From positions 3,939 through 67,938 of the forward strand of contig CAYJCR010000001.1 in the NCBI GenBank assembly GCA_964368755.1: a DNA stretch of 64,000 nucleotides, given 5' to 3'. This stretch comes from an uncultured Lachnospiraceae bacterium. GTDB lineage: Bacteria; Bacillota; Clostridia; Christensenellales; UBA1242. Positions 18,250 through 62,300 of this stretch are shown here, in pieces (the stretch's first letter is position 1; each line of letters opens with the position of its first letter). The notes beneath the pieces are model-generated. The model saw only the letters and a program-made list of their open reading frames with translations, did no database searches and was not told the origin of the DNA. Position numbers and translations under genes: made by a program.

Positions 18250-18598
18250 GGGGGCGATTTGGTTTCGACGGAGAAGTGTGATTGTAGTAAAGCGTGTCGC
18301 AGGCTCGGCTGCGTAATAACGGAAATTAAATTAAACGCAAAAACAAACACTAGCGCTGTTGCCGCATAATAATAGCAACTGTTTGACTTAGAATTGCTCA
18401 TTGGCTTTGTTCAAGCATCAAATTAAATGAGAAACTTCATACAAAATTGCCTTATTTTGTAAGTCGTATCTAAAGGCTGGTTGTATTGTATATGTTAATA
18501 TGTGCAATGCAATGAGACAAAAAACTATTAACTACACACCGTAGAAAAGCTACTTTTAACTTTTTCGGACATGGGTTCAACTCCCATCGCTTCCACCA
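18250..18598 (+). ncRNA. ssrA: tmRNA (transfer-messenger RNA)
   Basis: 5' end GGGGGCGATTTGGTTTCGACGG and 3' end GGACATGGGTTCAACTCCCATCGCTTCCACCA (tRNA-Ala-like acceptor/T-arm). Internal tag frame is GCA AAA ACA AAC ACT AGC GCT GTT GCC GCA TAA TAA TAG (18337-18372), giving AKTNTSAVAA. Confidence 0.93.
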
Positions 18599-33477: not shown

Positions 33478-33495
33478 CCAAACGGCATAAATTGG

Positions 33496-33524
33496 CGCAA
33501 GTCTACGTTAGACTTGCGTTTTTT
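33496..33524 (+). terminator. Rho-independent terminator after rpsI
   Basis: CGCAAGTCTA cgt TAGACTTGCG followed by T6. Confidence 0.85.
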
Positions 33525-33850
33525 ATTCGGTCGAGTATGTCCATATACACTCCCTTGATAAATACGCGTCTGCTTTGCATCTATATAAGCTATTCTACAA
33601 TGAAGGAACTTGTTTGCTCATAGAAAAATGCAGTTAATTTGACAGTTCATAAAAAATAGATATCAAATTGTTTGATTGTTTACTACAAAATAATATATAA
33701 TAATACTATAATAATTATACTGGGTGTCATATAAAGTGCTGACACCAAATTCGCGACTAGGATTGATTAAGTTCGTACTCGATTGAGATTATTACCCAAA
33801 GGACTTTTGATGGACATTAGATAATAAACTTTTTGACAAAGGAAATAGAT

Positions 33851-36800
33851 ATGCACACAAAAGCAAATAGTATTATCGTGAATATAATGAAGTATATTTG
33901 TTTGTCGCTTGCGATAATTTTGTTGGGCACAATTTTGTTAACAAAAACAAGTAACGACTCTGTCGCATATGCTGTAGACAATAATGAAGAAATTGAGACT
34001 TTGGCAGAGGAACAGATCAATACGGAGACTTTGGCAACAGATTATTCCAACTTGCCAATCAGATATATAGGCACGGCACAAGAGTTACAGAACATGGCTG
34101 TGGAAAGATACAAGAATGTATTGACAAATGACATTGTTTTGCCTAACGGATTTTCATCGATTGGAGTGTACTATGGTGCATTTGATGGCGCTGGTTACAC
34201 AATTTCTAACGTAACAAATGCAATATTTGATGATGTTACAGGTTTAGTAGAAAATATTGTTGTTGCTGATTCAACAAGCACCAGCACGGCGTTTATTGCA
34301 AATTCTATACATACTGGGACAACGATAAAAAATTGTACTATTCAAGATACATGCTCTATCAATACTACAAGTTCTATAGCTGGTGGTATTGTTGGTAGGA
34401 TCTTGGGAGGCTCTATTATCAATTGTACTAACCACGCTGCAGTCAGGGCAAGGAATTATGCTGGTGGTATTGCAGGATTAGCAGATGGAGTAAGTTCTTC
34501 TATTGAGAACTGTATCAACTCCGGGATCATTTCTGTTGCAAGCGGGAAATGCTGTGGTGGTATATTGGGATATAAAGAGGGCATTCTTAATGGATATATT
34601 ACCACAATAAAAAGCTGTATGTCATCAACAACAATTGTTGGAGGTTGTAGCTCAAACACGCATACAAAATCTGAAAAAGAATACCTTTTGTATCCCGAAG
34701 AAAATGCTCTTGAAGAAGTAGTTAATCCAGGTGGAGAATTTCTTGGTTATAGGATTTTTTATACTAAAAAAGTAGCTTCTTGGGTCCCTGAGAATGAAAA
34801 TTATATGGTTACTGATAGTGACATGTCTGACTATGCATATATGTCTAAGAATATATTTGGATTAAAATTCATTGCTGAAGGAGTTGGAAGATATTACACG
34901 AGTAGAAATGGTGGAAGTTATCAAGTACTTAAGTATTATACGAAGAAAGAAGTAAGATATTTCAAATACGTTAATAGAATTATCTTCAGTTCTGCCGTAG
35001 AAATAAGTTCTTCTACATATAATTCAAGAACAGGAATAGCATCAATTCTTTCACAATATATTGATGTTAAAAATTGTCGTGCGCTTAATCCTATTTCTGC
35101 GACTTATATGTTCAGCGATATTGTATGTCAGGGTAGTGGTACTCAAGAAGATCCTTATAGAATAACAAATATCGATGAATTGTATACAATGTTGCTCTGG
35201 TATTACAATGGTGGTACTGCAAAGCATTACAAGTTAATGAATGACATTGACTTAAGGGTTAATAACCGTGTTGGTTTCCGTAGTAACGAAAATAATTGGC
35301 TGGAAGTAACTTTTCCTCGTGATAGTTCTTTTGATGGTAACGGCTTTAGCTTATCAGGATTGTATATGTATAGCCTTGGCTTCGCATATGAAAACAATGG
35401 CACTATCAAGAACTTCACTATCTCTGAATCAACAATACTTAGCTCTGCATATGACGATGTCGGAGCATTTGCAACAATCAATAATGGAATAATCGACAAC
35501 TGCTGTTTTGGAGTTAATACATATTTAGCAAAAGGTGGTTTGCTTGTTGGTATTAACTGTGGCACGATCAAAAATTGTTACACAGCGAGCGATGAGTACA
35601 ACTGCGCATATCAAGTTGGTGGAATTGCAGAGAAGAACGTGGGTGGTACAATAACAAATTGTATAAACAATGCAAAGTTGTCAGGATCTTCTGCAAAAGC
35701 AGGTATTGTATGTGAAAACAAAGGTGGTACTTTGTCTCATTGCATCAACTACGGATACATAAGCTCTACTAATTCGTATGCTGGTGGCATTGTAGCTCAA
35801 AGCTATATGTTGGATGACGAAATTAGTACAATAGAATATTGCTACAACAGATTGAACAATGATGCATTAACATGGGGTGCAACTGCAGGTGGAATAGTTG
35901 CTGAAGATAATTATTCTGCTATTAGTTATTGTATTAATGAACAGAATATTACTGGATCAAATCGCGCAGGTGGAATAGTAGGGTATAGTCAAGGAAGTAA
36001 TATATCATACAGTATTAACGGAAAAGTTCAGCCCACTGGTAATCAATATGCTACAATTACTGGTCGTACGATAGGTGGTATTATTGGTTATTCAGCTAAT
36101 AACACTGTTGTTGACTATTGCTACAATTCTGGAAGACTTGTTTCTATCAATACTGTTGGTGGATTAATTGGAACAATATATAATGGTGGGACAATAAGCA
36201 ATAGTTATAGCATTGGACAAATATTGTTTGATGAGAATAGGATTAGTTCATATGGAGAAAGCGCAGGATTGCTGATCGGAAATATTGTTGAGAAGACACA
36301 AGACGTAACGATCACGAAATGTTTCGCTTCAAAAGAGTTTTTCTTGATCCCAGAGAAAGAGATCTCTTTAATTGGTAGTGGGGTATCAACAATTGTTGAT
36401 TCTAGCATACTTGATTCTGAAGCAATGTATTATGAGAACGACAATAAGTTATTTGGTTCTGATCAAAAATGGAGCTATTACGATAGTCCAATCGAAGAAG
36501 ATCATTATTTTCCACAACTAGCTTGGCTAACAAACGCTTTTGAAGAAGATGAGTACTATCAGAGTACAGGTAATGAATGTTCTTACAGAGAATATTTTAA
36601 GTACTATGAAGTATTATGGAATGTTAATTTTATTGATTCAAATGGTCAAATAATAGACAGCAAAGTTGTCCGTAACAATGAGTTTGTAAGTCCATACGAG
36701 TACGTAACAATTGCCTATGATGTTCAGGGTTGGGCTCTCAACAGGAATGGAAGCATTTATGACTTCAACAAACCAATCAATAGAGATCGTAACTTTTATT

Positions 36801-39800
36801 TGATATATACTCCATATTTTGATGATGAATTGAAGAATAATCCAGATGGAACAGAAGAAAAGCCATTTGTTCTTTCGACAGCTAAGCATTTGCAGGCTAT
36901 GTCAGACTTGTTTAATGGCGACAACGCATATAAATATATTGAAAAAAGATACATTCTCAAAAATGACATATCCTTCGGAAGAAATGACAATTATAACGAC
37001 GAGAACAACACCAACTTTGTAAGCATGGGATTAACTACAGGTAGCACTTTTGGTGGCGTATTTGATGGATGTGGATATAGCATTAAGAATATAATGGTAT
37101 CTAGTACAAGTTTAGATATTGGATTATTCTATTATAATAATGGATCTATAAAGAACTTAACTATTTATGGAGAGTTTTCTTCTACAGCCGACAATGTTGG
37201 AGGTTTTGCAGGAACCAATAATGGAACAATAGAAGCATGTCGAAATGTTTGTAAGGTTACAGGAAATTTTAACGTTGGTGGTATTGCAGGATACAATCAA
37301 GGATCAATTATTGACTGTGCTAACGATGGAAGTATTATTGCAAAAGAAAATATCGGAGGTATCGTCGGGATATCTAATAATGGTACAATCTCTCATACAT
37401 ACAACACTGGATATATCATATCAAGCAAAGGATCTGGTGTCGGTGGTATTGTAGGTAGTTGTAATAATACTAGTATTAACAGTGTATACAATGCTGGAGA
37501 GATTGTAGGATACTCCGACATGATTTCAGATAGTGCTGCAGGACTATTGGTTGGGTATCTCAACAATAGTACTGTGACAAATGGATATGCTCTTGACAAT
37601 GAATATATTAATCTGCTCGGGTATATTATTAACTCTTCATCTTCAAGTTCTTATGAAATGCCAATTTACAAGCTCTCATACTATGATAACATGGTATTTG
37701 GTAATGATAGTCGTTGGGGTTATATGCCAGGCGATTATGATAATGGATACGCATATTATCCATATTTGACTGTTCTTGACTATGACGAACAATACGAGTC
37801 GTTAATTGCAGATATATATTCTCCACATATCTTCTCCAAAGGCCGTGGAACAATTGACAATCCATTCGTTATAACAACGGCTCAACAATTGCAAACAGTT
37901 ATGTTCCTTGCTGATAACGGTGCTAGATATAATGAAATTATCAAGGACTCTTTAATACAGACTCTTTATAATGAAGTTATTGATTATATCGCAAATGAGG
38001 ATAATGGTGCTAAATTGCTTTTACATATGGACTTTAGCAATGCATGTTACAAAATTGGCTGCGATATAACTTTTAAAGAGAATTATATTGATGATCTACA
38101 TACATACAATTTTTATCCTATTAATAGTGAGTATATAGCCAATAATGTTGGACAAGGACCAAGTTTTTCTGGTGTTATCGATGGTGGTGGCAATACTATT
38201 AAAGGCCTTATCATAAAAGCTTTACCTTCATATGGCAATGCTTATCAGGTAGGCTTAGTTGGGAACTTGTTTGGAACAGGCGAACTTGATAATATTGGCA
38301 CAAGTACCGATATTGATGGCCGAAAAGGTGTGATTAAGAATCTAACGATCAAGAATAGCAAATACGTATTTGACGATGCCAACAAATCTTCTCAAATATA
38401 TGTTGGAGCATTTGCTGGTGATTCTAATAATGGTATAATATATAATTGCAATTCTGTTAACAATGATTTGGCATTCCGCAATTCTTGCCAAGAGCTAAGA
38501 ATTGGAGGAATAGTAGGTAGGGCAACCGCAATGGAAATCAGAGATTGTACAAATAGATCTTCAGTATACGCATCTTTGCTTGGAATACAGAATGGTGCAG
38601 GAGATCTAGGTGGTATAGCTGGATCTGCTAATGCAACAAAAATACTTAATTGCACAAACTTTGGATATATACATGGTATCGGGCATAAAGGTGGCATCGC
38701 TGCTGTAACCGGCAACTTGTCTAACATAAATAATTGTATTAACTATGGAGACGTTTTTTCAGTCAAAGTGGCTATATTACAAATAACTCAATATGCAGGT
38801 GGAATAGTTGGACAAGGAAGTGCTGTTGATTGTGTTAACTTTGGCGTTATCACAGGGGATTCATCTCCAACGGGGGGAATAGTTGGCGAAGGTAAAGCAA
38901 ATTATTGTACAAACTACGGAAGAGTGTCTACGACAGGAACGAGTTATTCTTGTGGAGGTATAGCTGGTACGGGTATAGTATATGACAGTATAAATAATGG
39001 TGAAGTATATGGCACTTCTATACTAGAAGTATTTGATGATTGTCTTGGTGGAATAGTAGGATATGGCAGAGCAGTAGGTTGTACAAATAATGGGAATGTT
39101 AATGGAACATCAAACAATGTTGGAGGAATAGTTGGTAACTATTCAATAAAGAATGATTTAACACTCCAGCAATGGCAGACTGGATTATGTTCAACAAAAG
39201 ATATAATAAGAATTGCAGAGACAGAAATTGACGTATTGTATTGTGATTGCAATGTCTTTAGCGAGTTATTAGAGAACTCAGGAGATATGTCTAACATTAA
39301 CAAACATACTTCGGCACAGATGTATGATTCGACGGCTGTTGCATTTGATAATGTGAGCCAAAGCTTTGTTGAATTATTGAGTAATTACAATATTAGTGAA
39401 GAAAACATCATAAGTTTAACAGAATTGAGTGATACATATAGCTTATATTCAAACTTTCATTCAAAACTAAAACAATTGTATTTGAGTTCTAATGATTCTG
39501 TAGCAAAGCAATTCAATGAAAGTTTCACTGAGGGGATGCTAGTTGGTATTAACAGACCTTACATTGTTGAGTGTGGGCTTCCAACAATCCCAAGTATTAA
39601 CGAGATTAGAAGTATTATTGCTAGATTGTTCGGATATAGCGATGTGAACACCTTCGTTGAATATGCACAGGCACTTGCATCAGAATATGAAGATAATGCT
39701 TTAGGCGCATCGAACGAAACGCTTGCTTCAAGATTAAAATATAACGGTGCAGTATATACAGAGAATGGGTGTTTTGTTCTTCCATTTGTATTCAAAAATG

Positions 39801-42800
39801 CTAGTTCTAACAGTGTTGATGTTTGTATCATCGTAGATACAACAGGTGCTATTTCTGTGTTAATAGATGATGTGGCCCATGCATACAAAGTAGCTCAAGT
39901 TTATGATGATAACTTTAATGCTCACGAAATAACAAATGTAGAACATATAGAATCTTATGCGCGTTGTGAGTTGTTCGAAAGGTCAGGATCCCGTGAGATT
40001 TGTTCTAATGTGAATGTTGGTTCAGTAGAAGGTAATAACAACGTTGGTGGAATAATCGGTAAGTATGAGATTAACTTAGCTATAGAAAATCCTATATATG
40101 ACAACTACAATACTGGGTCAGTATCTGGCAATTTCCATGTCGGTGGTATTGTTGGATACTCAGTAAGTGGTGTGGACAGGTGCTTTAATACAGGTACCGT
40201 TGATGGTAAAAAATATATTGGCGGTGTTGGTGGTACTATTGCAAAAGTAACGAACAGCTACAATACAGGAAGCATTTCTGCAGAGTATAATATAGCTGGT
40301 GGTGTTGCAGGCGAAGGTTATTACGTTGAGAATTGCTACAATACAGGTTCTGTTTTGGGGCAGTCATATGTTGGTGGCATAATGGGAATGGGTTATGATG
40401 CTTCTAACGATCCTGTAGCATACAATGGTGCAACAATAAAAAATAGCTATTACAGCACACAATCTATGCAACCATATTTTAATTATCTAACTTCAGATAA
40501 TAGTGTTAACATTGATGAATTGAGCTGTGGCAAGACTAATAAGGCGTTAACATATGCTGGTAATCAGTATTTAGGTGATGAATATATTTATACTATAAAC
40601 GAAGGATTGGTATTCTATTATCCAACGTTAGGTATAAATAATGACATAGAGAAGAGCATGAGCGTTTCTCTCAGACTTGTTAATGTAAATATTTTGAATG
40701 AAGATGGTTCTTATTATGGTACATATGTCATTCCAGAGACAACAACAATAGCATTCAATGATATTGTTAAGGATAGATTCGGTTATGGTTTCGAAAGATT
40801 ATACAATGAAGACGGAGATTGGGATCTAGATGATGAGATATATGAAGATGTTGTATTGACTATATCTTATTATGAATATTTTGAGAACTCTGATTCATAC
40901 TCAGAAGATGGATATTTCCTCATCACTAAGCCAGAACATTTGATTAATCTATCTGCTTTGATATATAACGACAATGATAATTATGCTACCTTAACTTATG
41001 TGCTAGGTAATAATATTGATATGTCTGGCATAGACTTTATTCCTATTGGCAACGAGTATGCTACAGAGTTGCCATTCAGAGGAGTATTTGATGGCCAAGG
41101 ATATACAATAAACAATCTAACAATTTCTGGTCAAAATGGTCATAAAGATATTAAGATCTGTGGTTATGAGAAGTCAACTCCTGACTATAGTCATATTGGA
41201 TTGTTTGGATATGTTTGCCAAGATGAAAACATGATTGCTGAAAATAAAGAAACTGGAGTTGTTAAGAATCTTGGACTAATTGGTGGTAATATTTCGGCTT
41301 TGGCTAGCAATGTAACAGGAACACATGCAAAAGATAATGTTGGTTCGATTATAGGACTATCTAATGGTGCTAGTCTTAACAACTGCTTTAGTACAGCCAA
41401 AGTGTATGGAAAAGTTAATGCCGGAGGTCTTATTGGTAAGATCACGGGAGATCTTGTAAGCAATCAGTTGTATAATCTTGCGTTTAACGGCGTGGTTACA
41501 TGTGTTGAACTTGGCGAGACAGTTGGCTTTGGATCCAACTTCGGTGCATTGATTGGAGAAGTTCAATCTGATAACATTGCTGAAGATTTCATTATGAATG
41601 CTTATGTAGTTGGGCCTGTATATATGAGATCTGATAATACCAATAGAGTCATATCGATTATTGGTAACAGCAATAGCAGCAACTTTACTTCGTTAAGAGA
41701 TAATGATACGTTGTACTATATTAGCGATGCTACAAGTGGTACGGCGATTAATAGAAGTGGTCTTGGTATTTCTAAGACTATGAAACAAATACTTATTGAT
41801 GAATTATATGAGATATGCGATGATATGTCACTATTGAGTGTGGAGCATGATGTAGATACTTATTTTTATCCACAAATAGAGATTTTCGTTGAAAGGAATA
41901 ATGCAGAAGCGATGAATGCTTTGTCAAGAAATATCTACGTTGTATCATTCTATAGTAATGGTGCAGATAGAACATTTGACACGTTGTATTTATTCGAAGA
42001 AAATTACAAATTGAATGCTGAGGATTATTTGGTCAGTATAGATAATTATACATTCTCAGGCTGGTATGCTTTTGGTAGTGAAAAATGGGATTTTGACTCA
42101 ACAGTTAACACAAGTATGAATCTTGTTGCAAAATGGAAAGTCGATTCTACCGAAGTATCAATATCGGCAAGTACCGATTCTATTGTATACAATACAGGCG
42201 AGATAGTTTTGTATACAAATGCGCAGAACAGTTTTGCTCAAAGCAATGGTATAGAATATGAATATATGTGGTTAAAAGATGGCATAGAAATACCAAATGC
42301 AACGGGTCGTTCATTAAGATTAACAGAAGTTTCCCAATCTGGTGAATATACATGCATGGTAATAGTATCAGATGGTATATGTTACAATATTGACAAATCA
42401 AACGTAGTTACGGTCAATATACGTAAAGCAGTTTTTCCACAAGAGGTAGAGGCCCCAACGATTGAACCAGTTACATATTCTAAGGATATGAAACTTTCTG
42501 ACATAGAGTTGCCTGATAATTATTATTGGTTAGACCCAGATCAAGAGCTTAGTGCTACAGAAGGTACAAGATATGAGATGTATTATGAACCAGAAAATAA
42601 GAATTATGGCAATGTTGAGTCTTTGTATGCAATAGTTAAGGTTACAAAACTTGATACTGTTATCAACGTGGATATGGTTCGCACAGAATACACATATACG
42701 GGTAGCGAAATAGTTGTTGATAGTGGTGCAACAAGCAACTCTCCAATTCTCATCATGTATAATAACAATAAAATAATGGAACCTGGAGAATACGAAGTTA

Positions 42801-43597
42801 CAATCTATACTTTGGATAGCGTTAATTACAACCCAGCAGAAGTAAAAGTAACTGTTCATGTTGACAAAGCTGAAGGAATAATTGCAGCGAATGAAGTTCA
42901 GTATTGTATATTTAATGGACAGAAACATAATGTCAAAGTTCATATGAATAATACTGAGCAAGAACTTCAATATACTGAAAAATCAGGATATACGAATATC
43001 GGTGCATATGACATAAGTGTTAAGGCACTCGCAAGTTCTCATTATACAGAGTCAAACACTGTCAATATTAGGTTGATTATATTAAAAGACCGTATTAGCA
43101 CTGTAGAGGGTAATAATCCTCAGATAACGATAATAAGTAACCAAGGTATAAATGACGAAGCAAGTGTAGTTGCAAATATTGTTGACAATCAAAATATGAT
43201 TGATAGAGCTAAGCTTATTGTTGCAAGGGATTGTGATGAAAAATTATTGTTCGGAACATTGATAAACATTGAAGTGAATAATGCAACAAGACTTGCAGAG
43301 CCAACTGTTAGACTTGCGTTGCCAGAAGAGCTTAAGGGCAAGGCGACATATCAGGTTGTGTATATCGCTGACGATGGGACATCAGAGGAGCTAGCAACAA
43401 CTATTGATGGAGATTATATCGTATTTGATACTTTACATTTCTCAAATTATGCAATATTGTACAAAGAAGCTCCACAAAAAGTTGAAGTGTGGAAGATTAT
43501 ATTACCAATAAGTATAATACTTGTAGGACTTGCAACCATTGTTGTTGTCTATATAATATCCAAAGTTCAATTCAAAAAAAATAAAAAGCAAAGGTAA
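33851..43597 (+). CDS. Giant (3,248 aa) multi-module surface protein: signal peptide, five GLUG/beta-helix-type modules, Listeria-Bacteroides repeats, Ig-like and MBG-like modules, C-terminal TM anchor
   Basis: Start taken at ATG 33851 (AAAGGAAA RBS); the ORF track starts at TTG 33833. Signal-like N-terminus is MKYICLSLAIILLGTILLTKTSNDSVAYA. About 28 (N/Y)xGGI(V/A)G turns. Five module caps of the type PY/PF-x-I-x-T...L....DI..FDGxGYxIxNL. C-terminus is VWKIILPISIILVGLATIVVVYIISKVQFKKNKKQR. Confidence 0.85.
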   Translation: MHTKANSIIVNIMKYICLSLAIILLGTILLTKTSNDSVAYAVDNNEEIETLAEEQINTETLATDYSNLPIRYIGTAQELQNMAVERYKNVLTNDIVLPNGFSSIGVYYGAFDGAGYTISNVTNAIFDDVTGLVENIVVADSTSTSTAFIANSIHTGTTIKNCTIQDTCSINTTSSIAGGIVGRILGGSIINCTNHAAVRARNYAGGIAGLADGVSSSIENCINSGIISVASGKCCGGILGYKEGILNGYITTIKSCMSSTTIVGGCSSNTHTKSEKEYLLYPEENALEEVVNPGGEFLGYRIFYTKKVASWVPENENYMVTDSDMSDYAYMSKNIFGLKFIAEGVGRYYTSRNGGSYQVLKYYTKKEVRYFKYVNRIIFSSAVEISSSTYNSRTGIASILSQYIDVKNCRALNPISATYMFSDIVCQGSGTQEDPYRITNIDELYTMLLWYYNGGTAKHYKLMNDIDLRVNNRVGFRSNENNWLEVTFPRDSSFDGNGFSLSGLYMYSLGFAYENNGTIKNFTISESTILSSAYDDVGAFATINNGIIDNCCFGVNTYLAKGGLLVGINCGTIKNCYTASDEYNCAYQVGGIAEKNVGGTITNCINNAKLSGSSAKAGIVCENKGGTLSHCINYGYISSTNSYAGGIVAQSYMLDDEISTIEYCYNRLNNDALTWGATAGGIVAEDNYSAISYCINEQNITGSNRAGGIVGYSQGSNISYSINGKVQPTGNQYATITGRTIGGIIGYSANNTVVDYCYNSGRLVSINTVGGLIGTIYNGGTISNSYSIGQILFDENRISSYGESAGLLIGNIVEKTQDVTITKCFASKEFFLIPEKEISLIGSGVSTIVDSSILDSEAMYYENDNKLFGSDQKWSYYDSPIEEDHYFPQLAWLTNAFEEDEYYQSTGNECSYREYFKYYEVLWNVNFIDSNGQIIDSKVVRNNEFVSPYEYVTIAYDVQGWALNRNGSIYDFNKPINRDRNFYLIYTPYFDDELKNNPDGTEEKPFVLSTAKHLQAMSDLFNGDNAYKYIEKRYILKNDISFGRNDNYNDENNTNFVSMGLTTGSTFGGVFDGCGYSIKNIMVSSTSLDIGLFYYNNGSIKNLTIYGEFSSTADNVGGFAGTNNGTIEACRNVCKVTGNFNVGGIAGYNQGSIIDCANDGSIIAKENIGGIVGISNNGTISHTYNTGYIISSKGSGVGGIVGSCNNTSINSVYNAGEIVGYSDMISDSAAGLLVGYLNNSTVTNGYALDNEYINLLGYIINSSSSSSYEMPIYKLSYYDNMVFGNDSRWGYMPGDYDNGYAYYPYLTVLDYDEQYESLIADIYSPHIFSKGRGTIDNPFVITTAQQLQTVMFLADNGARYNEIIKDSLIQTLYNEVIDYIANEDNGAKLLLHMDFSNACYKIGCDITFKENYIDDLHTYNFYPINSEYIANNVGQGPSFSGVIDGGGNTIKGLIIKALPSYGNAYQVGLVGNLFGTGELDNIGTSTDIDGRKGVIKNLTIKNSKYVFDDANKSSQIYVGAFAGDSNNGIIYNCNSVNNDLAFRNSCQELRIGGIVGRATAMEIRDCTNRSSVYASLLGIQNGAGDLGGIAGSANATKILNCTNFGYIHGIGHKGGIAAVTGNLSNINNCINYGDVFSVKVAILQITQYAGGIVGQGSAVDCVNFGVITGDSSPTGGIVGEGKANYCTNYGRVSTTGTSYSCGGIAGTGIVYDSINNGEVYGTSILEVFDDCLGGIVGYGRAVGCTNNGNVNGTSNNVGGIVGNYSIKNDLTLQQWQTGLCSTKDIIRIAETEIDVLYCDCNVFSELLENSGDMSNINKHTSAQMYDSTAVAFDNVSQSFVELLSNYNISEENIISLTELSDTYSLYSNFHSKLKQLYLSSNDSVAKQFNESFTEGMLVGINRPYIVECGLPTIPSINEIRSIIARLFGYSDVNTFVEYAQALASEYEDNALGASNETLASRLKYNGAVYTENGCFVLPFVFKNASSNSVDVCIIVDTTGAISVLIDDVAHAYKVAQVYDDNFNAHEITNVEHIESYARCELFERSGSREICSNVNVGSVEGNNNVGGIIGKYEINLAIENPIYDNYNTGSVSGNFHVGGIVGYSVSGVDRCFNTGTVDGKKYIGGVGGTIAKVTNSYNTGSISAEYNIAGGVAGEGYYVENCYNTGSVLGQSYVGGIMGMGYDASNDPVAYNGATIKNSYYSTQSMQPYFNYLTSDNSVNIDELSCGKTNKALTYAGNQYLGDEYIYTINEGLVFYYPTLGINNDIEKSMSVSLRLVNVNILNEDGSYYGTYVIPETTTIAFNDIVKDRFGYGFERLYNEDGDWDLDDEIYEDVVLTISYYEYFENSDSYSEDGYFLITKPEHLINLSALIYNDNDNYATLTYVLGNNIDMSGIDFIPIGNEYATELPFRGVFDGQGYTINNLTISGQNGHKDIKICGYEKSTPDYSHIGLFGYVCQDENMIAENKETGVVKNLGLIGGNISALASNVTGTHAKDNVGSIIGLSNGASLNNCFSTAKVYGKVNAGGLIGKITGDLVSNQLYNLAFNGVVTCVELGETVGFGSNFGALIGEVQSDNIAEDFIMNAYVVGPVYMRSDNTNRVISIIGNSNSSNFTSLRDNDTLYYISDATSGTAINRSGLGISKTMKQILIDELYEICDDMSLLSVEHDVDTYFYPQIEIFVERNNAEAMNALSRNIYVVSFYSNGADRTFDTLYLFEENYKLNAEDYLVSIDNYTFSGWYAFGSEKWDFDSTVNTSMNLVAKWKVDSTEVSISASTDSIVYNTGEIVLYTNAQNSFAQSNGIEYEYMWLKDGIEIPNATGRSLRLTEVSQSGEYTCMVIVSDGICYNIDKSNVVTVNIRKAVFPQEVEAPTIEPVTYSKDMKLSDIELPDNYYWLDPDQELSATEGTRYEMYYEPENKNYGNVESLYAIVKVTKLDTVINVDMVRTEYTYTGSEIVVDSGATSNSPILIMYNNNKIMEPGEYEVTIYTLDSVNYNPAEVKVTVHVDKAEGIIAANEVQYCIFNGQKHNVKVHMNNTEQELQYTEKSGYTNIGAYDISVKALASSHYTESNTVNIRLIILKDRISTVEGNNPQITIISNQGINDEASVVANIVDNQNMIDRAKLIVARDCDEKLLFGTLINIEVNNATRLAEPTVRLALPEELKGKATYQVVYIADDGTSEELATTIDGDYIVFDTLHFSNYAILYKEAPQKVEVWKIILPISIILVGLATIVVVYIISKVQFKKNKKQR

Positions 43598-43668: not shown

Positions 43669-43697
43669 TTGACATCAAACATATTGTATGATATTAT
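43669..43697 (+). promoter_or_regulatory. Candidate promoter of the 43732 gene
   Basis: TTGACA - 17 nt - TATTAT. Confidence 0.5.
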
Positions 43698-43731: not shown

Positions 43732-45996
43732 ATGGCAAGGTATACCGAAAAACAACTTAATGAACTTTTGCTCAAAGAGTCTATCATGAGAGATGCTTTG
43801 AACAAGGCTGGTGATGCTGCATCTAAGGGACTTATTGATAGGCTTAATGTTCAATATGCAAAACTTCAGAAAAAAGTTGACGAATATCCAAAGAAGGCTG
43901 CTGAACAAGATAAAGAGAAGTTCGATCTTCTTATTATTAGTTATAGAGCTATGGAAAAAGCTGAGGTTGAAGAAGCGGTAAGAGAACAACTCCGTCAGAA
44001 TGAAAAAGGCTTAACTAAGGCCAAAGAAGATAAGCTTCTTGCTGACCCATTGAAGTTTGGTAAAGAACTTGAAGATACTATTGGCAAAGATGTTCAAGCA
44101 AAAGCTAAGAGAAAGCAAGAGGGCAACGAACTAATAGAAGATTATGTAACAGCTGATGGAACCTTGACTGCTGTCCCAGATAGAGTTCTTGAGAAATATA
44201 TGAAAGGGAACGAATTGATTTTCCCTAGGAACCTTCGTATACACGCAATCAATGCATTATTCGAAAAACACTCAACTTTGAAGACTAAAGTTGTGGGATT
44301 TGGTAGATTCCCAAATACTTTGACAAGAATTGATGCACATGTGTTCGAAGGTTGTCAGAATCTTACTATGATCAAACTTCCTGCAGGATTAAAGTCTATT
44401 GGTAGCTTTGCTTTTAAAGATTGTGCATCATTGAGAGATGTGTGGTTGCCAAAATATTTGACAACTATATATCCAGCTGCTTTTATGAATACAAACATTA
44501 CGAGAGTGAACTTGCCAGAAGATATAGATGAGATCGGGGATTTTGCCTTCAAGAACTGCTATGCTCTTAATGACATATATATACCTGACAAACTTAACAA
44601 GATTGGTGTTGGAGCTTTTGCTGGAGCCAATATCAAAGAGTTCAGGGTAGGTAAGGATAACGAGATTTATTCCACAATCGACGGCAACTTGTACGATAAG
44701 CAAGGAGAGACTCTTATTGCCTACGCTGGTGGTAAAGATGATATGACAATAACTGTTAGTAAAGGCACTAAGCACATTGGTGCATATGCATTCGCAGGAT
44801 TGTGTTCACAAAAAGATCCAGCTACAGGCTGCTTCGTTCGTCCAGCTAGAGAACTTATTAATTTGCCGGATACTGTTGAGACTATTGACACAGCAGCATT
44901 CAAAGAAGCAAATGTTGAAGTAATCGATTTGTCACAAACAAAGGTTGAGACATTGCCAGAGAGCTTTGCAGAAGGATCACAAGTTCGAGAAGTCAAAGGC
45001 TTAGAGGATATTAAAATAATCGAAGCAAAGGCATTGAAAGACACTACAGAGTATGCAGCTCCACTTATTATCAATGCAGAGAAGATTGGTGATGAGGCTT
45101 TTGCCGGAACGGGTGCAACAGTATTAGAAATCAAAAAACCTGCCATACTTGGAAGTAATCTCATTGCAGGTAGTAGCATTGAGACATTGCTCGTAGAAGC
45201 TCTTCCTCTTAGCATGATGGGAGATGCATTCTTTGGAGCAACGAAGCTTAGAGAAGCAGCTTTGGTTAGAGAAATGTTCTTTGATAAGAATGGCAAGATG
45301 CTAGCCGGTGCTGCATTGAAAAGCAGAATTCACAAATACTTCCCAGATTCTAATCAACTTGAGGTTCTTAGTTTCTTGATGGGAGAAGAAAATTGTTGCA
45401 TGATTGCGTATCAGATAGAGAATAAGAGTGGCGACTTAGTAACATATTTTAGAAGAGAATCATGTGTGAAGAGCAAAGCAGAGGAGAATGGCCAAACTGT
45501 TCTAAAGTCGGAAAATGAGGTCTCTGAGGCTGTGGTAGCAAGTACTGAGGATGGGACAGCAGTTGTATTAGGTCATGAGGTGTCCGTTACTACAAAAGAA
45601 ACTGGAGAAGGTTCTACCAAACGCAAACAAAGATTCAAACAAGAAACTGTTTCTGCTAGAGTTCTTGGCGAGCGCGATGTTCCAACTGACATCTCCGGTG
45701 CAAATGTAGAAATCACGACTCCTAGTGGAGAAAAATGCGTTATAAGCGCTCAAGTAGGAGTGTCTCGCGAGAATGGAAAAGTCTCACTTACAAGCTATAG
45801 CGCTCAACAAGTTGTCGCAAATCTAGAAGCTCAAGAACAGCCACAATTAGAGGAAGCTCCATATAGACCAACAGCAGAAGAAATAGCGGCTGAGGAAGCC
45901 AGAGTTGAAAGTGAAATTGATGTTAAAAAAACGCTAGCAGGTGAAACGGCTGAGTTTGTTCAAACGCTTAAGTACCATAGAGATACAAAGGATTAA
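43732..45996 (+). CDS. BspA-type leucine-rich-repeat protein with coiled-coil N-domain and acidic C-domain, no signal peptide
   Basis: GGGGAG RBS. The central ~330 aa carry repeats of the type IGxxAFxxCxxLxxIxIPxxV (e.g. IDAHVFEGCQNLTMIKLPAGLKSIGSFAFKDCASLRDVWLP). The N-terminus MARYTEKQLNELLLKE is hydrophilic. Confidence 0.8.
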   Translation: MARYTEKQLNELLLKESIMRDALNKAGDAASKGLIDRLNVQYAKLQKKVDEYPKKAAEQDKEKFDLLIISYRAMEKAEVEEAVREQLRQNEKGLTKAKEDKLLADPLKFGKELEDTIGKDVQAKAKRKQEGNELIEDYVTADGTLTAVPDRVLEKYMKGNELIFPRNLRIHAINALFEKHSTLKTKVVGFGRFPNTLTRIDAHVFEGCQNLTMIKLPAGLKSIGSFAFKDCASLRDVWLPKYLTTIYPAAFMNTNITRVNLPEDIDEIGDFAFKNCYALNDIYIPDKLNKIGVGAFAGANIKEFRVGKDNEIYSTIDGNLYDKQGETLIAYAGGKDDMTITVSKGTKHIGAYAFAGLCSQKDPATGCFVRPARELINLPDTVETIDTAAFKEANVEVIDLSQTKVETLPESFAEGSQVREVKGLEDIKIIEAKALKDTTEYAAPLIINAEKIGDEAFAGTGATVLEIKKPAILGSNLIAGSSIETLLVEALPLSMMGDAFFGATKLREAALVREMFFDKNGKMLAGAALKSRIHKYFPDSNQLEVLSFLMGEENCCMIAYQIENKSGDLVTYFRRESCVKSKAEENGQTVLKSENEVSEAVVASTEDGTAVVLGHEVSVTTKETGEGSTKRKQRFKQETVSARVLGERDVPTDISGANVEITTPSGEKCVISAQVGVSRENGKVSLTSYSAQQVVANLEAQEQPQLEEAPYRPTAEEIAAEEARVESEIDVKKTLAGETAEFVQTLKYHRDTKD

Positions 45997-55131: not shown

Positions 55132-55159
55132 GTATAAAAAACTGTGCATCTAATATTGA

Positions 55160-55409
55160 TGATTGGCATACAATAGAACTCCAACATTCAAGCTCCCGCA
55201 AAGCTACCTTATGGCACATCTCTGGATCTACTTAATGCTGCTGCCGTCAGGCTCTGACATGGTTCATAGGAAGAAATTGCATAAGACCTTGATATCAACA
55301 CTCAAGATATTGACTCACATTGTACAACAGATCACCGCTATTAGCATTCGGCCCTACTATAGTGGATTGTAGGTAACAGGGCACCACTAGCTCCCCGCCT
55401 AGCACAGCT
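55160..55409 (-). ncRNA. ffs: Signal recognition particle RNA, long Bacillus-type form with Alu domain (ends approximate)
   Basis: The minus strand contains the domain IV core ATGTCAGAGCCTGACGGCAGCAGCATTAAGTAG (compare GUCAGGUCC-loop-GGAAGCAGC) and a 5' Alu-like region GTGCTAGGCGGGGAGCTAGTGGTGCCCTGTTACC. It is a GC-rich island in AT-rich DNA with its own promoter. Confidence 0.8.
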
Positions 55410-59374: not shown

Positions 59375-62300
59375 ATGAAGAATAAATTTGTGAAGATTAT
59401 TGCTGCACTAACATTTTGTTTGGTGCTTATTATCCCTATTGTTGTAGTAGGATGTGAGTCAACAAATGGTGGTAGCGGTAGAATCAAAGTTACCTTTGAT
59501 GGCAACACGGGCAACCTTAACGGCAACTCATCGATAACTGAATCCGTTGATAAGAATAGCACAGTGTCTGACCTTGACAGATTCATTCCAACTAAGGTTG
59601 GATATAGTTTTGTCGGCTGGTCAACCAAACAGGACGGATCAACTATTCTCAAGTCAACTGATAAGATTGATTCGAGCACAACTTTGTATGCCATATGGGA
59701 GATTGATGAGATTACTCTCACATATAACCTTATGGGTGGTACAGGAACATTAGCTCCAGTAACAGCAGATTATGGTACAACCGTAACAGTAAGTGATGGT
59801 TCTACTATAAGCAAAGATAATTATGTCTTTGATGGTTGGTATTACGAATCAACTTATACTAACGCAATAGCAAACAATCGTAAGATATATCTTTCGTCTG
59901 ATGTAACAATATATGCGAAGTGGAAGGGCGAGAATAGAGTAGTCAATAAGATGGAATATGATTTTGCAAACAATTCTTATGTTAGTGCTACTCCAGCTAA
60001 TTATGAGTATGGCAAGTCAATTACATTGCCAACAGTAACAGATAAAGCACATTATACTTTCTTGGGTTGGGCAACTACTCCTAAAGCAAACTTGGATAGC
60101 AATACAGCCGAAGATATCATCTATAATGGCGGAGCTCTAGTACAAGTAATATGGGGAGAAGATGCTGATGCAGCTCTTACTATATATGAAGTTTGGAGTA
60201 CAAATAAATATACTATTAATTATGTAACCAATGGCGCTGATCCAATCGACCCTGTTGTTATCACATATGGTTCACGCGATAGTGAAGACAATCTTAGAAC
60301 TTTTGCTGTAGCTAGTTGTGGTGCAAAATTTGGATATAACTTCCAAGGCTGGAATACAAAAGAAGATTTCTCAGGTAATGAGATAGCTGCTTCTGCAACC
60401 TTGACTGCTGATAAAAATTATACATTGTATGCAAAATGGCAAGCAAAGAATGTTGCAGTGACTTTGTATAGACACTTAGACGAGACAACTGATATTGTTG
60501 GAGAGGCTCCAGTATCTAGCCAAGTAGTAAATGTAGCTTTTGGTGGTAAAATTAAGTTAAGCGATTATCCAGTTGGAACTCCTTTCTATCTCAATGGATG
60601 GTATACAGCAAGCGACTTTGCTGATGCTAGCAAGGTAACTAATGATGAGATAGTTATGACAAAAGATTTGTTCGCAAGCGATGAGGATATGACTCTTACA
60701 TTCTACACAAACACTGTTCCTGCTAACCACACTATTAAATTCTATGCAGAAGATGGAACAACACTTGAGTATACAATTACCGTTGAACATAATCATGGAT
60801 ATTCTTTTGCTGATAACATTGAAACAATTAAGGAAGATTATACTGATAAGTTCATCAAAACGGGACACACTTTCTTTGGATTCAAAGTTAAGGGTGAAGA
60901 ATCAGAAGTTGTATATGGCGCTGGCGAAGGAAGAGTAAGTGCAATTGAACAAGTAAAAGATTCTTACGAATTGGTAATAGTATATAATATAAATAATTAC
61001 AATATCACATATGTAATATCTGTCAACAATGTTGGTGGTGAGACTGTTGTGAATGGCGATCACAAATTTGTTTACAATACAGATATCACACTGATAACTG
61101 AGCAAGATCTTGCATCTTCGGTCACGAATAGAAAGTTCTGTGGATGGAACACTTCACTTAACAGTGTTGGAGAAGCAAATGGAGATTATTACAAAGACGG
61201 CGACAAAATGCCTGCACAGGATATTAAGTTGTATGCCGTATGGTCAATATATGACTTCGAAATAGTAGGCGAAGAGAATAAAACAGCTACTTTCAAAGGT
61301 ATCTACACAGGTGCAGAGAATGCAGTTGGAGAGATAATATTTATACCAGAATACTTCATTGGATATAAGACGACTCAAATAGCCGAAGGAGCATTGGAAG
61401 GCAATACAACTATTACACAAGTAGTGATGCCAGAAGGTCTAGTGGTGATAGGAGCAAGAGCATTCAAAGGTTGTAGCAATCTTGAAGCAATCGATTGGAT
61501 GGCAAGCACAAGTGTAACTACCATTGGTGAGAGTGCATTCGAAAGCACTGGACTTATAGCTGCAGTTATTCCTGATTCTATCACAAGCATTGGCAACAAT
61601 GCATATAAGAACTGCTCATCAATAACAGAGATATATATGAATGTATCTTTGTCTCAGAGTAGATTGAGCCCAATCACACTTGGTAACAATGTATTTGAGG
61701 GTGTTGGTATTACAGCATTGAGTGGAGAAGGTTGGAGCGTACTTGGTAATGACTGGAAGCCATTCTTTGATGAAACAGATGGATATGCAATAGGTGAAGG
61801 TATATTTGCTAATTGTACAGCTCTTGAGAGTGCGAACTTTGGTTCAACACTTCCTTGTCTTAGTGATAAGTTGTTCGAAGGTTGTACAGCTTTGGTTGCT
61901 ACTAATGCTTTTGACAACAATATGTCATTCAAGCACTTTGGCAAATATGCGTTCAAGAATACAGATTTAACTTATACTCAAATGAAATTAAATAACAATA
62001 TTGAGTTTGTTGATGAAGGAGCTTTCTTTGGTAATAAACATATTGAAGAAGTAATACTTGGGCAGAATGTTATGTCAGTCAATGCATCAGCATTCGAAGA
62101 TTGTAGTGGATTAGAAGCTTTCAGTTATTATGATTTGTCCAACATAGGTGCTGGTCAAGAAGAATATGGTGCGTTAAAAGAAATAGGTGCTAAAGCTTTT
62201 AAGAATACAAAACTTACTGAGATGGTTATCGGTGGTAATATTGAGAAAGTATGTGCTGGAGCGTTTGATAATTGCGCATACTTGGCAGAAGTTGTTTTTG

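What the first reader, a model, noticed from the sequence alone, without database searches (positions are those of the whole stretch)
33851..43597. 3,248-aa five-module GLUG/beta-helix-type surface giant inserted between the rplM-rpsI operon and trxB
This single 9.7-kb gene is the largest feature in the window. It has a signal-like N-terminus ending AYA. Five modules follow, starting at about nt 34040, 35133, 36841, 37841 and 40903. Each module opens with a cap such as DPYRITNIDELYTML..., KPFVLSTAKHLQAM..., NPFVITTAQQLQTV... or YFLITKPEHLINLS..., followed by FDGxGYxIxNL. Each cap is followed by runs of ~20-25-aa turns centred on GGI(V/A)G; I count about 28. That is the pattern of the GLUG motif seen in IgA-protease/adhesin-type parallel beta-helices. 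Listeria-Bacteroides-type repeats act as spacers between modules (about 36615-36810, 40680-40870 and 41930-42135). The C-terminus adds an Ig-like module (EYEYMWLKDGIEIPNATGRSLRLTEVSQSGEYTCMVIV), two MBG-like modules (YTYTGSEIVV...GEYEVTIYTLDSVNYNPAEVKVTVHVDKA) and a hydrophobic anchor plus KKNKKQR. There is no LPXTG, S-layer-homology or choline-binding anchor. The DNA re-uses near-identical GGTGGTATTGT(T/A)GG units many times, which could drive in-frame expansion or contraction. A candidate TTGATT-18-TATAAT promoter (33672-33701) would leave a ~145-nt leader containing the hairpin GGTGTCA-N10-TGACACC (33723-33746). The ligand and function are unknown.
Basis: partly seen in the sequence, partly recalled or inferred. 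Interest (0 to 1): 0.75.

Follow-up and report, generated by a model that had tools for sequence, protein, structure and literature searches.

The report
Giant five-module GLUG beta-helix surface protein
This is a real 3,248-residue, membrane-anchored surface protein made of five beta-helix modules of the kind that IgA1 proteases use to grip antibody. It is an ordinary new member of a common but unstudied class, except that one module carries an inserted 255-residue domain that no database describes.

Summary
One uninterrupted ORF (33851-43597, +, 3,248 aa) has a good RBS, its own promoter-like site, a signal peptide ending AYA and a C-terminal TM helix followed by KKNKKQR. Two other assemblies carry the same DNA.

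It has five FDGxG-capped modules with 25-28 GGI-type turns, related to each other at only 26-31% identity. A profile of the module matches PDB 3N6Z (E=3e-35) and the beta-helix gating domain of Gram-positive IgA1 metalloproteases (E=1e-13 to 1e-17). An AF2 model of module 3 (pLDDT 85) finds the same structures. There is no HExxH, LPXTG or SLH, so it is a non-catalytic relative.

Most likely it is a multivalent, adhesin-like binding fibril; that function is inferred.

Several peripheral claims fail or weaken:
- DNA repeats are too short and diverged to drive expansion or contraction.
- Only one Listeria-Bacteroides spacer is solid.
- The Ig and MBG calls are below threshold.
- The downstream neighbour is a BspA-LRR gene, not trxB.

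That domain has 110 other relatives at the 50%-identity cluster level, no Pfam, NCBIfam or PDB match, and a confident model with no fold match.

The parts
33494..33520 (+). Intrinsic terminator of rpsI (12-bp stem plus T-run). It separates the giant gene from the ribosomal-protein operon.
33672..33701 (+). Promoter-like site TTGATT-18-TATAAT (10/12 match). Function untested.
33723..33746 (+). 7-bp hairpin with a 10-nt loop in the putative leader. No T-run follows. The leader as a whole is not unusually structured (z=+0.99) and matches no Rfam family.
33839..33843 (+). Ribosome-binding site AAGGA, 7 nt before the ATG.
33851..43597 (+). Coding sequence of the 3,248-aa protein, stop codon included.
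33851..33973 (+). Signal peptide, aa 1-41: K-containing n-region, hydrophobic core aa 15-30, then AYA before VD.
   Evidence: cleavage site inferred from the AXA rule
34046..34636 (+). Module 1 (aa 66-262): cap PIRYIGTAQELQNM, FDGAGYTI at aa 111, three GGI turns, no YPxL C-cap.
   Evidence: Glug 16.9 bits; 86 bits
34637..35131 (+). Region after module 1 (aa 263-427). No Pfam or PDB match and no match in the 120 GLUG homologues. Unassigned.
35144..36535 (+). Module 2 (aa 432-895): cap DPYRITNIDELYTML, FDGNGFSL at aa 494, about 7 turns, C-cap YFPQL at aa 886.
   Evidence: (Glug 27.3 bits)
36617..36799 (+). Spacer 1 (aa 923-983): weak, full-length Listeria-Bacteroides-repeat-like match.
   Evidence: 13.6 bits; 10.5 bits
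36854..37798 (+). Module 3 (aa 1002-1316): compact canonical module, FDGCGYSI at aa 1071, C-cap YYPYL at aa 1302. Modelled as a beta-helix.
   Evidence: Glug 29.9 bits; 236 bits
37853..39214 (+). Module 4, N-terminal part (aa 1335-1788): cap NPFVITTAQQLQTV, IDGGGNTI at aa 1443, 8 turns, no C-cap of its own.
   Evidence: (profile positions 24-212)
39215..39988 (+). Inserted ~255-aa alpha/beta domain (aa 1789-2046). Motifs: CDCNxF, A(I/V)IG(I/L)N, ARLFGYxD, RLKY(D/N)GAxYTxNGxFxLP, YxRCxLFE. Belongs to an undescribed domain family.
39989..40654 (+). Module 4, C-terminal part (aa 2047-2268): no N-cap, 5 turns, C-cap YYPTL at aa 2256.
   Evidence: Glug 25.9 bits; profile positions 64-256
40679..40870 (+). 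Spacer 2 (aa 2277-2340). Proposed as a Listeria-Bacteroides repeat but has no sequence support.
   Evidence: (-3.7 bits)
40916..41911 (+). Module 5 (aa 2356-2687): cap YFLITKPEHLINLS, FDGQGYTI at aa 2413, degenerate turns (no Pfam Glug hit), C-cap FYPQI at aa 2672.
   Evidence: (155 bits)
41930..42136 (+). Listeria-Bacteroides (Flg_new) repeat, aa 2694-2762.
   Evidence: 28 bits, cut-off 27; 41 bits
42158..42460 (+). Ig-like candidate (aa ~2770-2870), below threshold.
   Evidence: Ig_2 20 bits, cut-off 27
42470..42655 (+). ~65-aa stalk repeat (aa 2874-2935). Matches four tandem repeats in the GLUG protein P0022.
   Evidence: E=8e-9
42692..43057 (+). Two MBG-like candidates (aa 2948-3007 and 3021-3069), below threshold.
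   Evidence: InlK_D3 18.3 bits, MBG_2 14.5 bits; 10.5 and 15.8 bits with a local MBG_3-seeded profile
43490..43594 (+). C-terminal TM helix WKIILPISIILVGLATIVVVYII (aa 3214-3236) plus basic tail SKVQFKKNKKQR. No sortase motif.

Best explanation
The gene encodes a Sec-exported, membrane-tethered surface fibril that acts as a multivalent binding protein (adhesin-like), not as an enzyme.

**Shown**
- A signal peptide and a single C-terminal TM helix with a basic tail. This gives type I topology, with nearly the whole protein outside the cell.
- Five paralogous modules. Each has an N-terminal helical cap, an FDGxGxxIxNL strand, a stack of ~28-aa GLUG rungs and a YPxL C-cap.
- The modules are homologous to the small beta-helix of PDB 3N6Z and to the beta-helix gating domain of Gram-positive IgA1 metalloproteases.
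- No protease or other catalytic domain.
- Module 4 carries a ~255-aa domain inserted between two rungs.

**Inferred**
- The C-terminal LBR, Ig-like and MBG-like domains form a stalk that carries the modules away from the membrane and through the wall.
- Each beta-helix offers a binding face. In S. pneumoniae IgA1 protease, the N-terminal domain that contains this beta-helix contacts the IgA1 Fab.
- Five diverged modules plus the inserted domain would give several different ligand specificities. Likely ligands are host or microbial surface proteins or glycans.
For: - **Topology:**
- **Module homology:**
- **Pfam Glug at or above its cut-off:**
- **Sequence link to solved structures:** the module profile hits 3N6Z at E=3.4e-35 over the full module, and 7UVK, 7UVL, 6XJA, 6XJB and 7JGJ at E=1e-13 to 1e-17.
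- **Structure:** AF2 model of module 3 has pLDDT 84.7 and pTM 0.88. Foldseek puts 3N6Z first (TM 0.68, probability 1.0), then the IgA1 proteases, then weak hits to pectate-lyase and tailspike beta-helices.
- **No catalytic or sortase motif:** no HExxH or LPXTG, and no catalytic Pfam family.
- **Precedent for binding:** the IgA1-protease NTD, which contains the beta-helix, binds the IgA1 Fab, and the beta-helix gates the active site (PMC7695701). Beta-helices serve as scaffolds from which domains emanate (PMC9637739).
- **Precedent for adhesion:** GLUG and Flg_new membrane proteins are proposed adhesin-like proteins in gut archaea (PMC9723798).
- **Common architecture:** among the 120 best homologues the median is 4 capped modules (range 1-10), none has HExxH, and 16 end in a TM helix plus basic tail without LPXTG.
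- **Inserted domain is extracytoplasmic elsewhere:** it occurs in lipoprotein-cyclophilin fusions and in MBG-repeat proteins.
Against: - There is no experimental datum for this protein or for any multi-module GLUG protein, and no ligand is known.
- Binding is extrapolated from one characterised homologous domain that works inside an enzyme.
- The stalk domains are below their Pfam thresholds.
- Signal-peptide cleavage and TM topology come from sequence rules, not from dedicated predictors.
- About 165 aa after module 1 and about 110 aa before the TM helix are unassigned.
- The inserted domain's function is unknown and could be catalytic.
- Expression has not been shown.
Confidence: 0.55

Rival explanations
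1. It is an enzyme. The beta-helix modules would act as polysaccharide lyases or hydrolases, as pectate-lyase-fold proteins and phage tailspikes do, degrading host or dietary glycans at the cell surface. Alternatively, the inserted domain is the catalytic part.
For: - Foldseek lists pectate lyases, alginate epimerases, polygalacturonases and tailspikes below the IgA1-protease hits.
- The inserted domain's best hits, none significant, are serine beta-lactamase-like enzymes such as ClbP, FmtA and AmpC.
Against: - Those matches are weak: E=0.09 or worse, TM 0.15-0.32, probability 0.35 or less.
- For the inserted domain, probability is 0.09 or less and TM about 0.15.
- No catalytic Pfam or NCBIfam family is found.
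- The invariant residues of the inserted domain are G, P, F, C, T and R, with no conserved Ser/Lys, His or acidic pair.
- The only characterised homologous beta-helix is a non-catalytic binding and gating domain.
Confidence: 0.12
2. It is a cell-envelope structural or coat protein. It would mediate cell-cell aggregation or act as a protective layer rather than bind specific ligands.
For: - It is very large, membrane-anchored and N/G/S/T/Y-rich.
- Other large surface-type ORFs lie in the same window: 32-6895, and 59375-62449 with Flg_new plus LRR_5.
Against: - No SLH or other wall-binding domain is present.
- The five modules are highly diverged from each other (26-31% identity). That fits diversified binding better than a repetitive lattice.
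Confidence: 0.2
3. It is an M26-type IgA1 or Zmp metalloprotease, as NCBI names some homologues.
For: - Homologues carry PF05342 (Peptidase_M26_N), and one is named 'M26 family metallopeptidase'.
- The module is homologous to the IgA1-protease beta-helix domain.
Against: - There is no HExxH anywhere.
- There is no Peptidase_M26_C, G5 or LPXTG.
- None of the 120 best homologues has HExxH either, so the name reflects only the shared beta-helix.
Confidence: 0.02
4. It is a contingency locus whose repeat DNA drives in-frame expansion, contraction or phase variation.
For: The 14-mer GGTGGTATTGTWGG occurs 6 times with up to 1 mismatch, against about 0.01 expected by chance.
Against: - The longest near-identical direct repeats are 18 nt.
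- The longer repeat families are only 63-78% identical.
- There are no tandem arrays.
- Two other samples carry identical DNA.
Confidence: 0.03
5. The long ORF is an assembly artefact, a chimera of repeats.
For: All available assemblies are short-read metagenome assemblies.
Against: - The DNA is non-repetitive.
- Three assemblies agree to within 0-1 mismatch.
- Composition is uniform.
- The frame stays open for 9.7 kb, with coherent domain grammar throughout.
Confidence: 0.02

Closest known systems
PDB 3N6Z, BACOVA_03286 of Bacteroides ovatus ('putative immunoglobulin A1 protease', structural-genomics entry)
   Same: It is a single GLUG module with an N-cap, an FDGxxHxI strand, GGIAG rungs and a YPxF C-cap. 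The profile match is E=3.4e-35 over the whole module. It is the best structural match to the module 3 model, with TM 0.68.
   Different: It has one module of 363 aa, against five modules plus a stalk and a TM anchor here. Its function is also unknown.
Beta-helix gating domain (within the NTD/NTD2) of Gram-positive IgA1 metalloproteases: S. pneumoniae (6XJA, 6XJB, 7JGJ) and G. haemolysans (7UVK, 7UVL)
   Same: It is a homologous small beta-helix (E=1e-13 to 1e-17; Foldseek probability 0.89-1.0). It shows that this fold can take part in binding a protein ligand: the NTD containing it binds the IgA1 Fab.
   Different: There it is one accessory domain of an M26 zinc protease with an HExxH catalytic site (H1604, E1605, H1608). 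Here there is no catalytic domain and no HExxH, no G5 and no LPXTG, and the module is repeated five times.
Multi-module 'GLUG motif-containing' or 'InlB B-repeat-containing' giant proteins of Clostridia, Bacteroidota, Mollicutes-like bacteria and archaea (e.g. P0003 Anaeromicropila populeti, P0031 Paenibacillus camelliae, P0094 Halorhabdus utahensis)
   Same: They use the same module grammar and often carry Flg_new or MBG accessory domains. They have 1-10 modules per protein (median 4) and no HExxH.
   Different: The best full-length relative is only 23-27% identical over 19-49% of the query. There is no orthologue, and the module order, the stalk and the inserted domain are specific to this protein. 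Anchors differ: SLH, LPXTG or a type IX C-terminal domain in many homologues, a TM helix here.
GLUG and Flg_new adhesin-like membrane proteins of gut archaea (Methanimicrococcus blatticola)
   Same: They are membrane-bound proteins with a GLUG motif, some with Flg_new as well, proposed to mediate adhesion in the gut (PMC9723798).
   Different: Their role is also only inferred, and their sequences were not compared here.
PfbA, a beta-helical surface adhesin of S. pneumoniae
   Same: [quoted passage not shown] This is a functional analogy.
   Different: Homology was not tested here. PfbA is described as a cell-wall-anchoring protein, whereas this protein ends in a TM helix, and it did not appear among the structural hits listed.

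Membership tests
GLUG-motif beta-helix module (Pfam PF07581 Glug; structural type 3N6Z / IgA1-protease beta-helix domain) | Repeated Glug motif hits at or above the Pfam gathering score | tested here: met
   Whole protein 20.6 bits against a cut-off of 20.5, in 6 stretches. Module 2 scores 27.3, module 3 29.9 and the C-terminal half of module 4 25.9. Modules 1 and 4N are below threshold and module 5 has no hit.
GLUG-motif beta-helix module (Pfam PF07581 Glug; structural type 3N6Z / IgA1-protease beta-helix domain) | Significant full-length sequence homology of the module to the solved representatives | tested here: met
   The profile of alignment A1 against the PDB gives 3N6Z at E=3.4e-35 (profile positions 3-287) and the IgA1 proteases at E=1e-13 to 1e-17.
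GLUG-motif beta-helix module (Pfam PF07581 Glug; structural type 3N6Z / IgA1-protease beta-helix domain) | Beta-helix fold | tested here: met
   The AF2 model of module 3 has pLDDT 84.7. Foldseek puts 3N6Z first with TM 0.68. Only module 3 was modelled.
GLUG-motif beta-helix module (Pfam PF07581 Glug; structural type 3N6Z / IgA1-protease beta-helix domain) | Pfam PF05342 (Peptidase_M26_N) hit, as many homologues have | tested here: not met
   No PF05342 hit at E<=5, either on the whole protein or on any segment. Homologues carry it.
M26 IgA1-specific / Zmp metalloendopeptidases | Zinc-binding HExxH catalytic domain (Peptidase_M26_C) | tested here: not met
   No HExxH and no Pfam hit.
M26 IgA1-specific / Zmp metalloendopeptidases | G5 domain and LPXTG anchoring | tested here: not met
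Listeria-Bacteroides repeat (Flg_new, PF09479) | Pfam hit at the gathering score | tested here: met
   aa 2696-2761 scores 28 bits against a cut-off of 27 on the whole protein, and 41 bits with a local profile. The other two proposed copies are weak (13.6 bits) or absent.
MBG domain (PF18676 / PF18887) | Pfam hit at the gathering score | tested here: inconclusive
   MBG_2 scores 14.5 bits against 25. A local MBG_3-seeded profile gives 10.5 and 15.8 bits at aa 2948-3007 and 3021-3069.
Immunoglobulin-like domain (Ig_2) | Pfam hit at the gathering score | tested here: inconclusive
   20 bits against 27, E=8e-4. No structure model was made.
Sortase-anchored LPXTG surface proteins | LPXTG-like motif before the C-terminal hydrophobic segment and basic tail | tested here: not met
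   A regular-expression search found none. The hydrophobic segment and basic tail are present.
SLH-anchored or choline-binding surface proteins | SLH (PF00395) or CW_binding repeats | tested here: not met
   No such Pfam hits at E<=1.
Type V autotransporter (serine IgA1-protease type) | C-terminal beta-barrel translocator domain | tested here: not met
   No autotransporter family in Pfam. The C-terminus is a single TM helix.
Phase-variable contingency loci | Simple-sequence or long near-identical tandem repeats within or upstream of the gene | tested here: not met

The most novel reading that the evidence does not exclude
The ~255-aa segment inside module 4 (aa 1789-2046, nt 39215-39988) would be the founding example of an undescribed extracytoplasmic domain family with a new fold.

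**What the evidence shows**
- It is a mobile module. There are 169 copies in 109 other proteins, usually in tandem behind MBG repeats. It also occurs fused to lipoprotein cyclophilin PPIases.
- Here it is spliced between two rungs of a beta-helix.
- The family has an invariant Cys near its N-terminus and a nearly invariant Cys near its C-terminus. I propose, without a distance check, that they clamp the domain ends together.

**What it might do**
- It could be the ligand-binding head of the protein.
- Given the PPIase fusions, it could instead be a chaperone-like domain that handles secreted giant proteins.
Probability: 0.35. Interest if true: 0.55.

Novelty: new member of a known kind. Interest (0 to 1): 0.38.

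Why it matters
Multi-module GLUG proteins are among the largest and most common predicted surface proteins of anaerobic gut and environmental Firmicutes, Bacteroidota and archaea. None has a known ligand.

This example gives a clean module grammar: N-cap, FDGxG strand, ~28-aa rungs and a YPxL C-cap. It also ties that grammar by sequence and by structure to the one homologous domain with a known role, the beta-helix gating domain of IgA1 proteases, whose enclosing N-terminal domain binds the IgA1 Fab.

It shows that database names such as 'M26 family metallopeptidase' for these giants are misleading. None of the 120 homologues examined has the catalytic motif.

The inserted domain adds an unannotated family, with 110 other clusters at 50% identity and a confident model, that could be curated and tested.

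For genome biology the gene itself is ordinary: a lineage-specific surface protein next to housekeeping genes.

Tried and rejected
- **Whole-protein self-BLAST** returned only the identity hit. Module-against-module BLAST was used instead.
- **Genome-contig scan with the giant** found no relative. The second scan, with PFOR, gave at best 63-64% identity to Christensenella-like and Clostridia MAGs. The organism is therefore placed only roughly, as Clostridia and probably Christensenellales-like.
- **Cluster look-ups** gave no names or accessions for the protein or for ten inserted-domain relatives.
- **Word-index searches with the inserted domain** found nothing as a single sequence and one fragment as a profile. 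The first did not recover even the parent protein, so these negatives mean little. The exhaustive HMMER search found the family.
With the trimmed alignment A3 it gave only 5 loci.
- **PDB sequence searches** of the inserted domain, the region after module 1 and the C-terminal 559 aa found nothing significant.
- **Foldseek of the inserted-domain model** against PDB and BFVD found no match better than probability 0.3 and TM about 0.2. A beta-lactamase-like reading was considered and rejected as unsupported.
- **jackhmmer seeded with a Pfam MBG_2 instance** stayed too small to be useful.
- **Rfam on the leader** found nothing, and the leader fold is not significant.
- **Sample accessions ERR5330906 and ERR5322706** were not found in the literature library.
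- **Not done:** the second structure job went to the inserted domain rather than the whole module 4 or the C-terminal stalk. The continuity of module 4 and the Ig and MBG folds therefore remain unmodelled.
Full report

Yes. The longest ORF in the region runs 33833-43597 on the + strand. The ATG at 33851 is preceded by AAGGA with a 7-nt spacer. It gives 3,248 residues ending KKNKKQR. GC content and GC skew are like those of the flanking housekeeping genes.

The exact protein is encoded on two further public contigs, from runs ERR5330906 and ERR5322706. Their DNA differs from the window by 0 and 1 bases over 12.5 and 10.6 kb. An assembly artefact is therefore unlikely, although all these assemblies are short-read.

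The rpsI gene upstream ends in a strong intrinsic terminator (33494-33520). The 7-bp hairpin at 33723-33746 exists, but the leader as a whole folds no better than shuffled sequence (z=+0.99). It matches no Rfam family.

**2. Anatomy**

The five cap motifs ([FI]DGxG[YFN]x[IL]) lie at aa 111, 494, 1071, 1443 and 2413. GG[ILVM] occurs 28 times, and the strict GGI-type motif 25 times.

The modules are true paralogues but old ones: pairwise identity is 26-31%. I built a profile from 28 module instances found in homologous proteins. It recovers every module in the giant:

| Module | Score |
|---|---|
| Module 1 | 86 bits |
| Module 2 | three overlapping hits |
| Module 3 | 236 bits |
| Module 4 | several hits |
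| Module 5 | 155 bits |

This includes module 5, which has no Pfam Glug hit.

The consensus grammar has four parts:
- a helical N-cap (Y.I..A..L);
- WTPIG...F.G.FDG.G..I..L;
- rungs of the form GGI.G......I.NC.N.G.V.G;
- a tail ending YP.L.

YPxL C-caps occur at aa 886, 1302, 2256 and 2672.

**3. Module 4 is split**

The N-terminal part (aa 1335-1788) has a cap but no C-cap. The part at aa 2047-2268 aligns to profile positions 64-256, so it has no N-cap but does have the C-cap. Between them lie about 255 residues with no GLUG character. The flanks read ...GGIVGNYSIKND | insert | EICSNVNVGSVEGNNNVGGIIG..., which places the insertion between two rungs.

**4. What the modules are**

Pfam Glug reaches its gathering score on the whole protein (20.6 against 20.5) and clearly in three segments. 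The profile of alignment A1 hits these PDB entries:

| Entry | Protein | E-value |
|---|---|---|
| 3N6Z | B. ovatus BACOVA_03286 | 3.4e-35, end to end |
| 7UVL, 7UVK | G. haemolysans IgA1 protease | 8.7e-17 and 2.4e-16 |
| 6XJA, 6XJB, 7JGJ | S. pneumoniae IgA1 protease | about 3e-13 |

An AF2 model of module 3 (pLDDT 84.7, pTM 0.88) finds 3N6Z first (TM 0.68). The IgA1 proteases follow, and then generic right-handed beta-helix enzymes and tailspikes at weak scores.

In the pneumococcal enzyme the N-terminal domain that contains this beta-helix binds the Fab of IgA1. The beta-helix itself moves about 10 A to gate the active site (PMC7695701). The same authors note that beta-helices often serve as scaffolds from which other domains emanate (PMC9637739).

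**5. What it is not**

- No HExxH, no HxxEH and no LPXTG-like motif.
- No Peptidase_M26_C, G5, SLH, choline-binding or autotransporter family.
- PF05342 (Peptidase_M26_N), present in many homologues, is not detected here.
- None of the 120 best homologues contains HExxH. Names such as 'M26 family metallopeptidase' for these giants reflect only the shared beta-helix.

**6. Accessory parts**

- *Listeria-Bacteroides repeats.* aa 2694-2762 is convincing: Pfam 25-28 bits, and 41 bits with a local profile. aa 923-983 is a weak but full-length match. aa 2277-2340 has no sequence support.
- *Ig and MBG.* The Ig-like call (Ig_2, 20 bits against 27) and the two MBG-like calls are below threshold. The MBG evidence is MBG_2 at 14.5 bits, InlK_D3 at 18.3 bits, and a local MBG_3-seeded profile at 10.5 and 15.8 bits.
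- *Stalk repeat.* aa 2874-2935 matches four tandem repeats in another GLUG protein, P0022.
- *Unassigned.* aa 263-427 and about 3100-3210.
- *Hydrophobic segments.* The only strongly hydrophobic segments are the N-terminal signal and the C-terminal helix at aa 3214-3236, which is followed by a basic tail. The one other segment just above the cut-off lies inside the inserted domain (aa ~1991).

**7. DNA repeats**

The longest near-identical direct repeats are 18 nt. Longer families are 63-78% identical, and there are no tandem arrays. This is codon-level echo of a conserved peptide motif. It is not a substrate for slippage or frequent recombination.

**8. Context**

The gene order is PFOR(-), truA, rplM, rpsI, the giant, a 754-aa BspA-type LRR protein without a signal peptide, trxB, a phosphoglucosamine-mutase-like gene and a pseudouridine synthase. 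The giant is therefore not adjacent to trxB.

The closest genomes I could reach are a Christensenella-like MAG and a Clostridia MAG, with rpsI 77-81%, rplM 76-80% and PFOR 63% identical. They keep PFOR-truA-rplM-rpsI, but within the flank available they have no GLUG gene, no BspA gene and no trxB downstream. The gene is lineage-specific at this site, but an insertion event cannot be demonstrated.

No orthologue exists in the 5.8-billion-protein collection. The next best hit is 23-27% identical. The architecture itself is common. Among the 120 best hits the median is 4 capped modules (range 1-10), and 26 have exactly five. Sixteen of the 120 end in a TM helix plus basic tail without LPXTG.

**9. 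The inserted domain**

An exhaustive HMMER search of 1.84 billion cluster representatives returned 111 hits at E<=1e-3, one of them the parent protein itself. Of these, 94 are at E<=1e-10 and 24 at E<=1e-30. Host proteins range from 139 to 7,521 aa and often carry several copies.

Locally I counted 169 copies in 109 proteins. Only 2 of 116 full-length copies are flanked by GLUG rungs on both sides (one is in P0154) and 2 on one side. It is therefore an independent, mobile domain.

It occurs in several contexts:
- in tandem behind four MBG-type repeats;
- with BspA LRRs, or alongside an MBG domain, in other proteins;
- at the N-terminus of ~500-aa cyclophilin PPIases that have lipoprotein signal peptides.

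It is therefore extracytoplasmic. No Pfam family, NCBIfam family or PDB sequence matches it.

The alignment shows invariant C16, G115, G144, G182, T186 and P194, and near-invariant F143, F151, G215, R254, C255 and F258. These are structural residues, with no obvious catalytic set.

AF2 gives a confident alpha/beta model (pLDDT 88.1, pTM 0.89). It has no meaningful match in the PDB (best probability 0.09 or less, TM about 0.15) or in BFVD. The two conserved cysteines sit near the two ends of the domain. I infer, without coordinates to check, that they may tie the ends together, as an inserted domain needs.

**10. Mechanism**

*Shown:* the export signal, the C-terminal TM anchor, five beta-helix modules homologous to a beta-helix from a known protein-binding domain, the absence of a catalytic domain, and an inserted extracytoplasmic domain.

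*Inferred:* the protein is a type I membrane-tethered fibril. Its C-terminal repeat domains act as a stalk. Its five diverged beta-helices and the inserted domain present several binding surfaces to host or microbial ligands.

I put this at 0.55. The rivals are:

| Rival | Confidence |
|---|---|
| Structural coat protein | 0.2 |
| Enzyme | 0.12 |
| Contingency locus | 0.03 |
| M26 protease | 0.02 |
| Assembly artefact | 0.02 |

**11. Novelty and score**

The giant is a new, orphan-architecture member of a known but uncharacterised kind. A specialist would not be surprised by it. The added value lies in three things: the sequence-and-structure link to the IgA1-protease gating domain, the caveat about database names, and the undescribed inserted domain family. 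Interest is 0.38.

Noticed in passing
window 39215-39988 (aa 1789-2046 of the giant); relatives P0121-P0230; loci L083-L087: An undescribed ~255-aa extracytoplasmic domain family. It has 110 other clusters at 50% identity and no Pfam, NCBIfam or PDB match. The AF2 model is confident but has no fold match. It occurs in tandem behind MBG repeats, and fused to lipoprotein cyclophilin PPIases.
   Followed up: yes
window 32-6895 (+): A 2,287-aa ORF rich in T, S, Y, I and N. It has no Pfam family at E<=1e-4, no hydrophobic segment, and no match to the local GLUG, inserted-domain, LBR or MBG profiles. It is a second large protein of unknown nature in the same window.
   Followed up: partly
window 59375-62449 (+): A 1,024-aa protein with four or more strong Listeria-Bacteroides (Flg_new) repeats followed by BspA-type LRR_5 repeats. 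It is another surface-type protein in the window.
   Followed up: partly
window 43732-45996 (+): A 754-aa BspA-type LRR protein directly downstream of the giant, with its own promoter-like site (TTGACA-17-TATTAT, 43669-43697). Its N-terminus is charged and looks helical, with no signal peptide, which is unusual for a BspA-like protein.
   Followed up: partly
homologues P0002-P0120: Public names such as 'M26 family metallopeptidase' are attached to multi-module GLUG giants, yet none of the 120 examined contains an HExxH motif. The names appear to be propagated from the shared N-terminal beta-helix.
   Followed up: partly
window 18250-18598 (+) and 55142-55407 (-): A tmRNA gene and a large (Firmicutes-type) SRP RNA gene, both above the Rfam gathering scores. 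They fit a Bacillota/Clostridia origin for the window.
   Followed up: no
L001 and L002 against the window: Both independent Logan contigs begin at exactly window position 33513, inside the rpsI terminator. This suggests a shared assembly-graph break at that hairpin.
   Followed up: no
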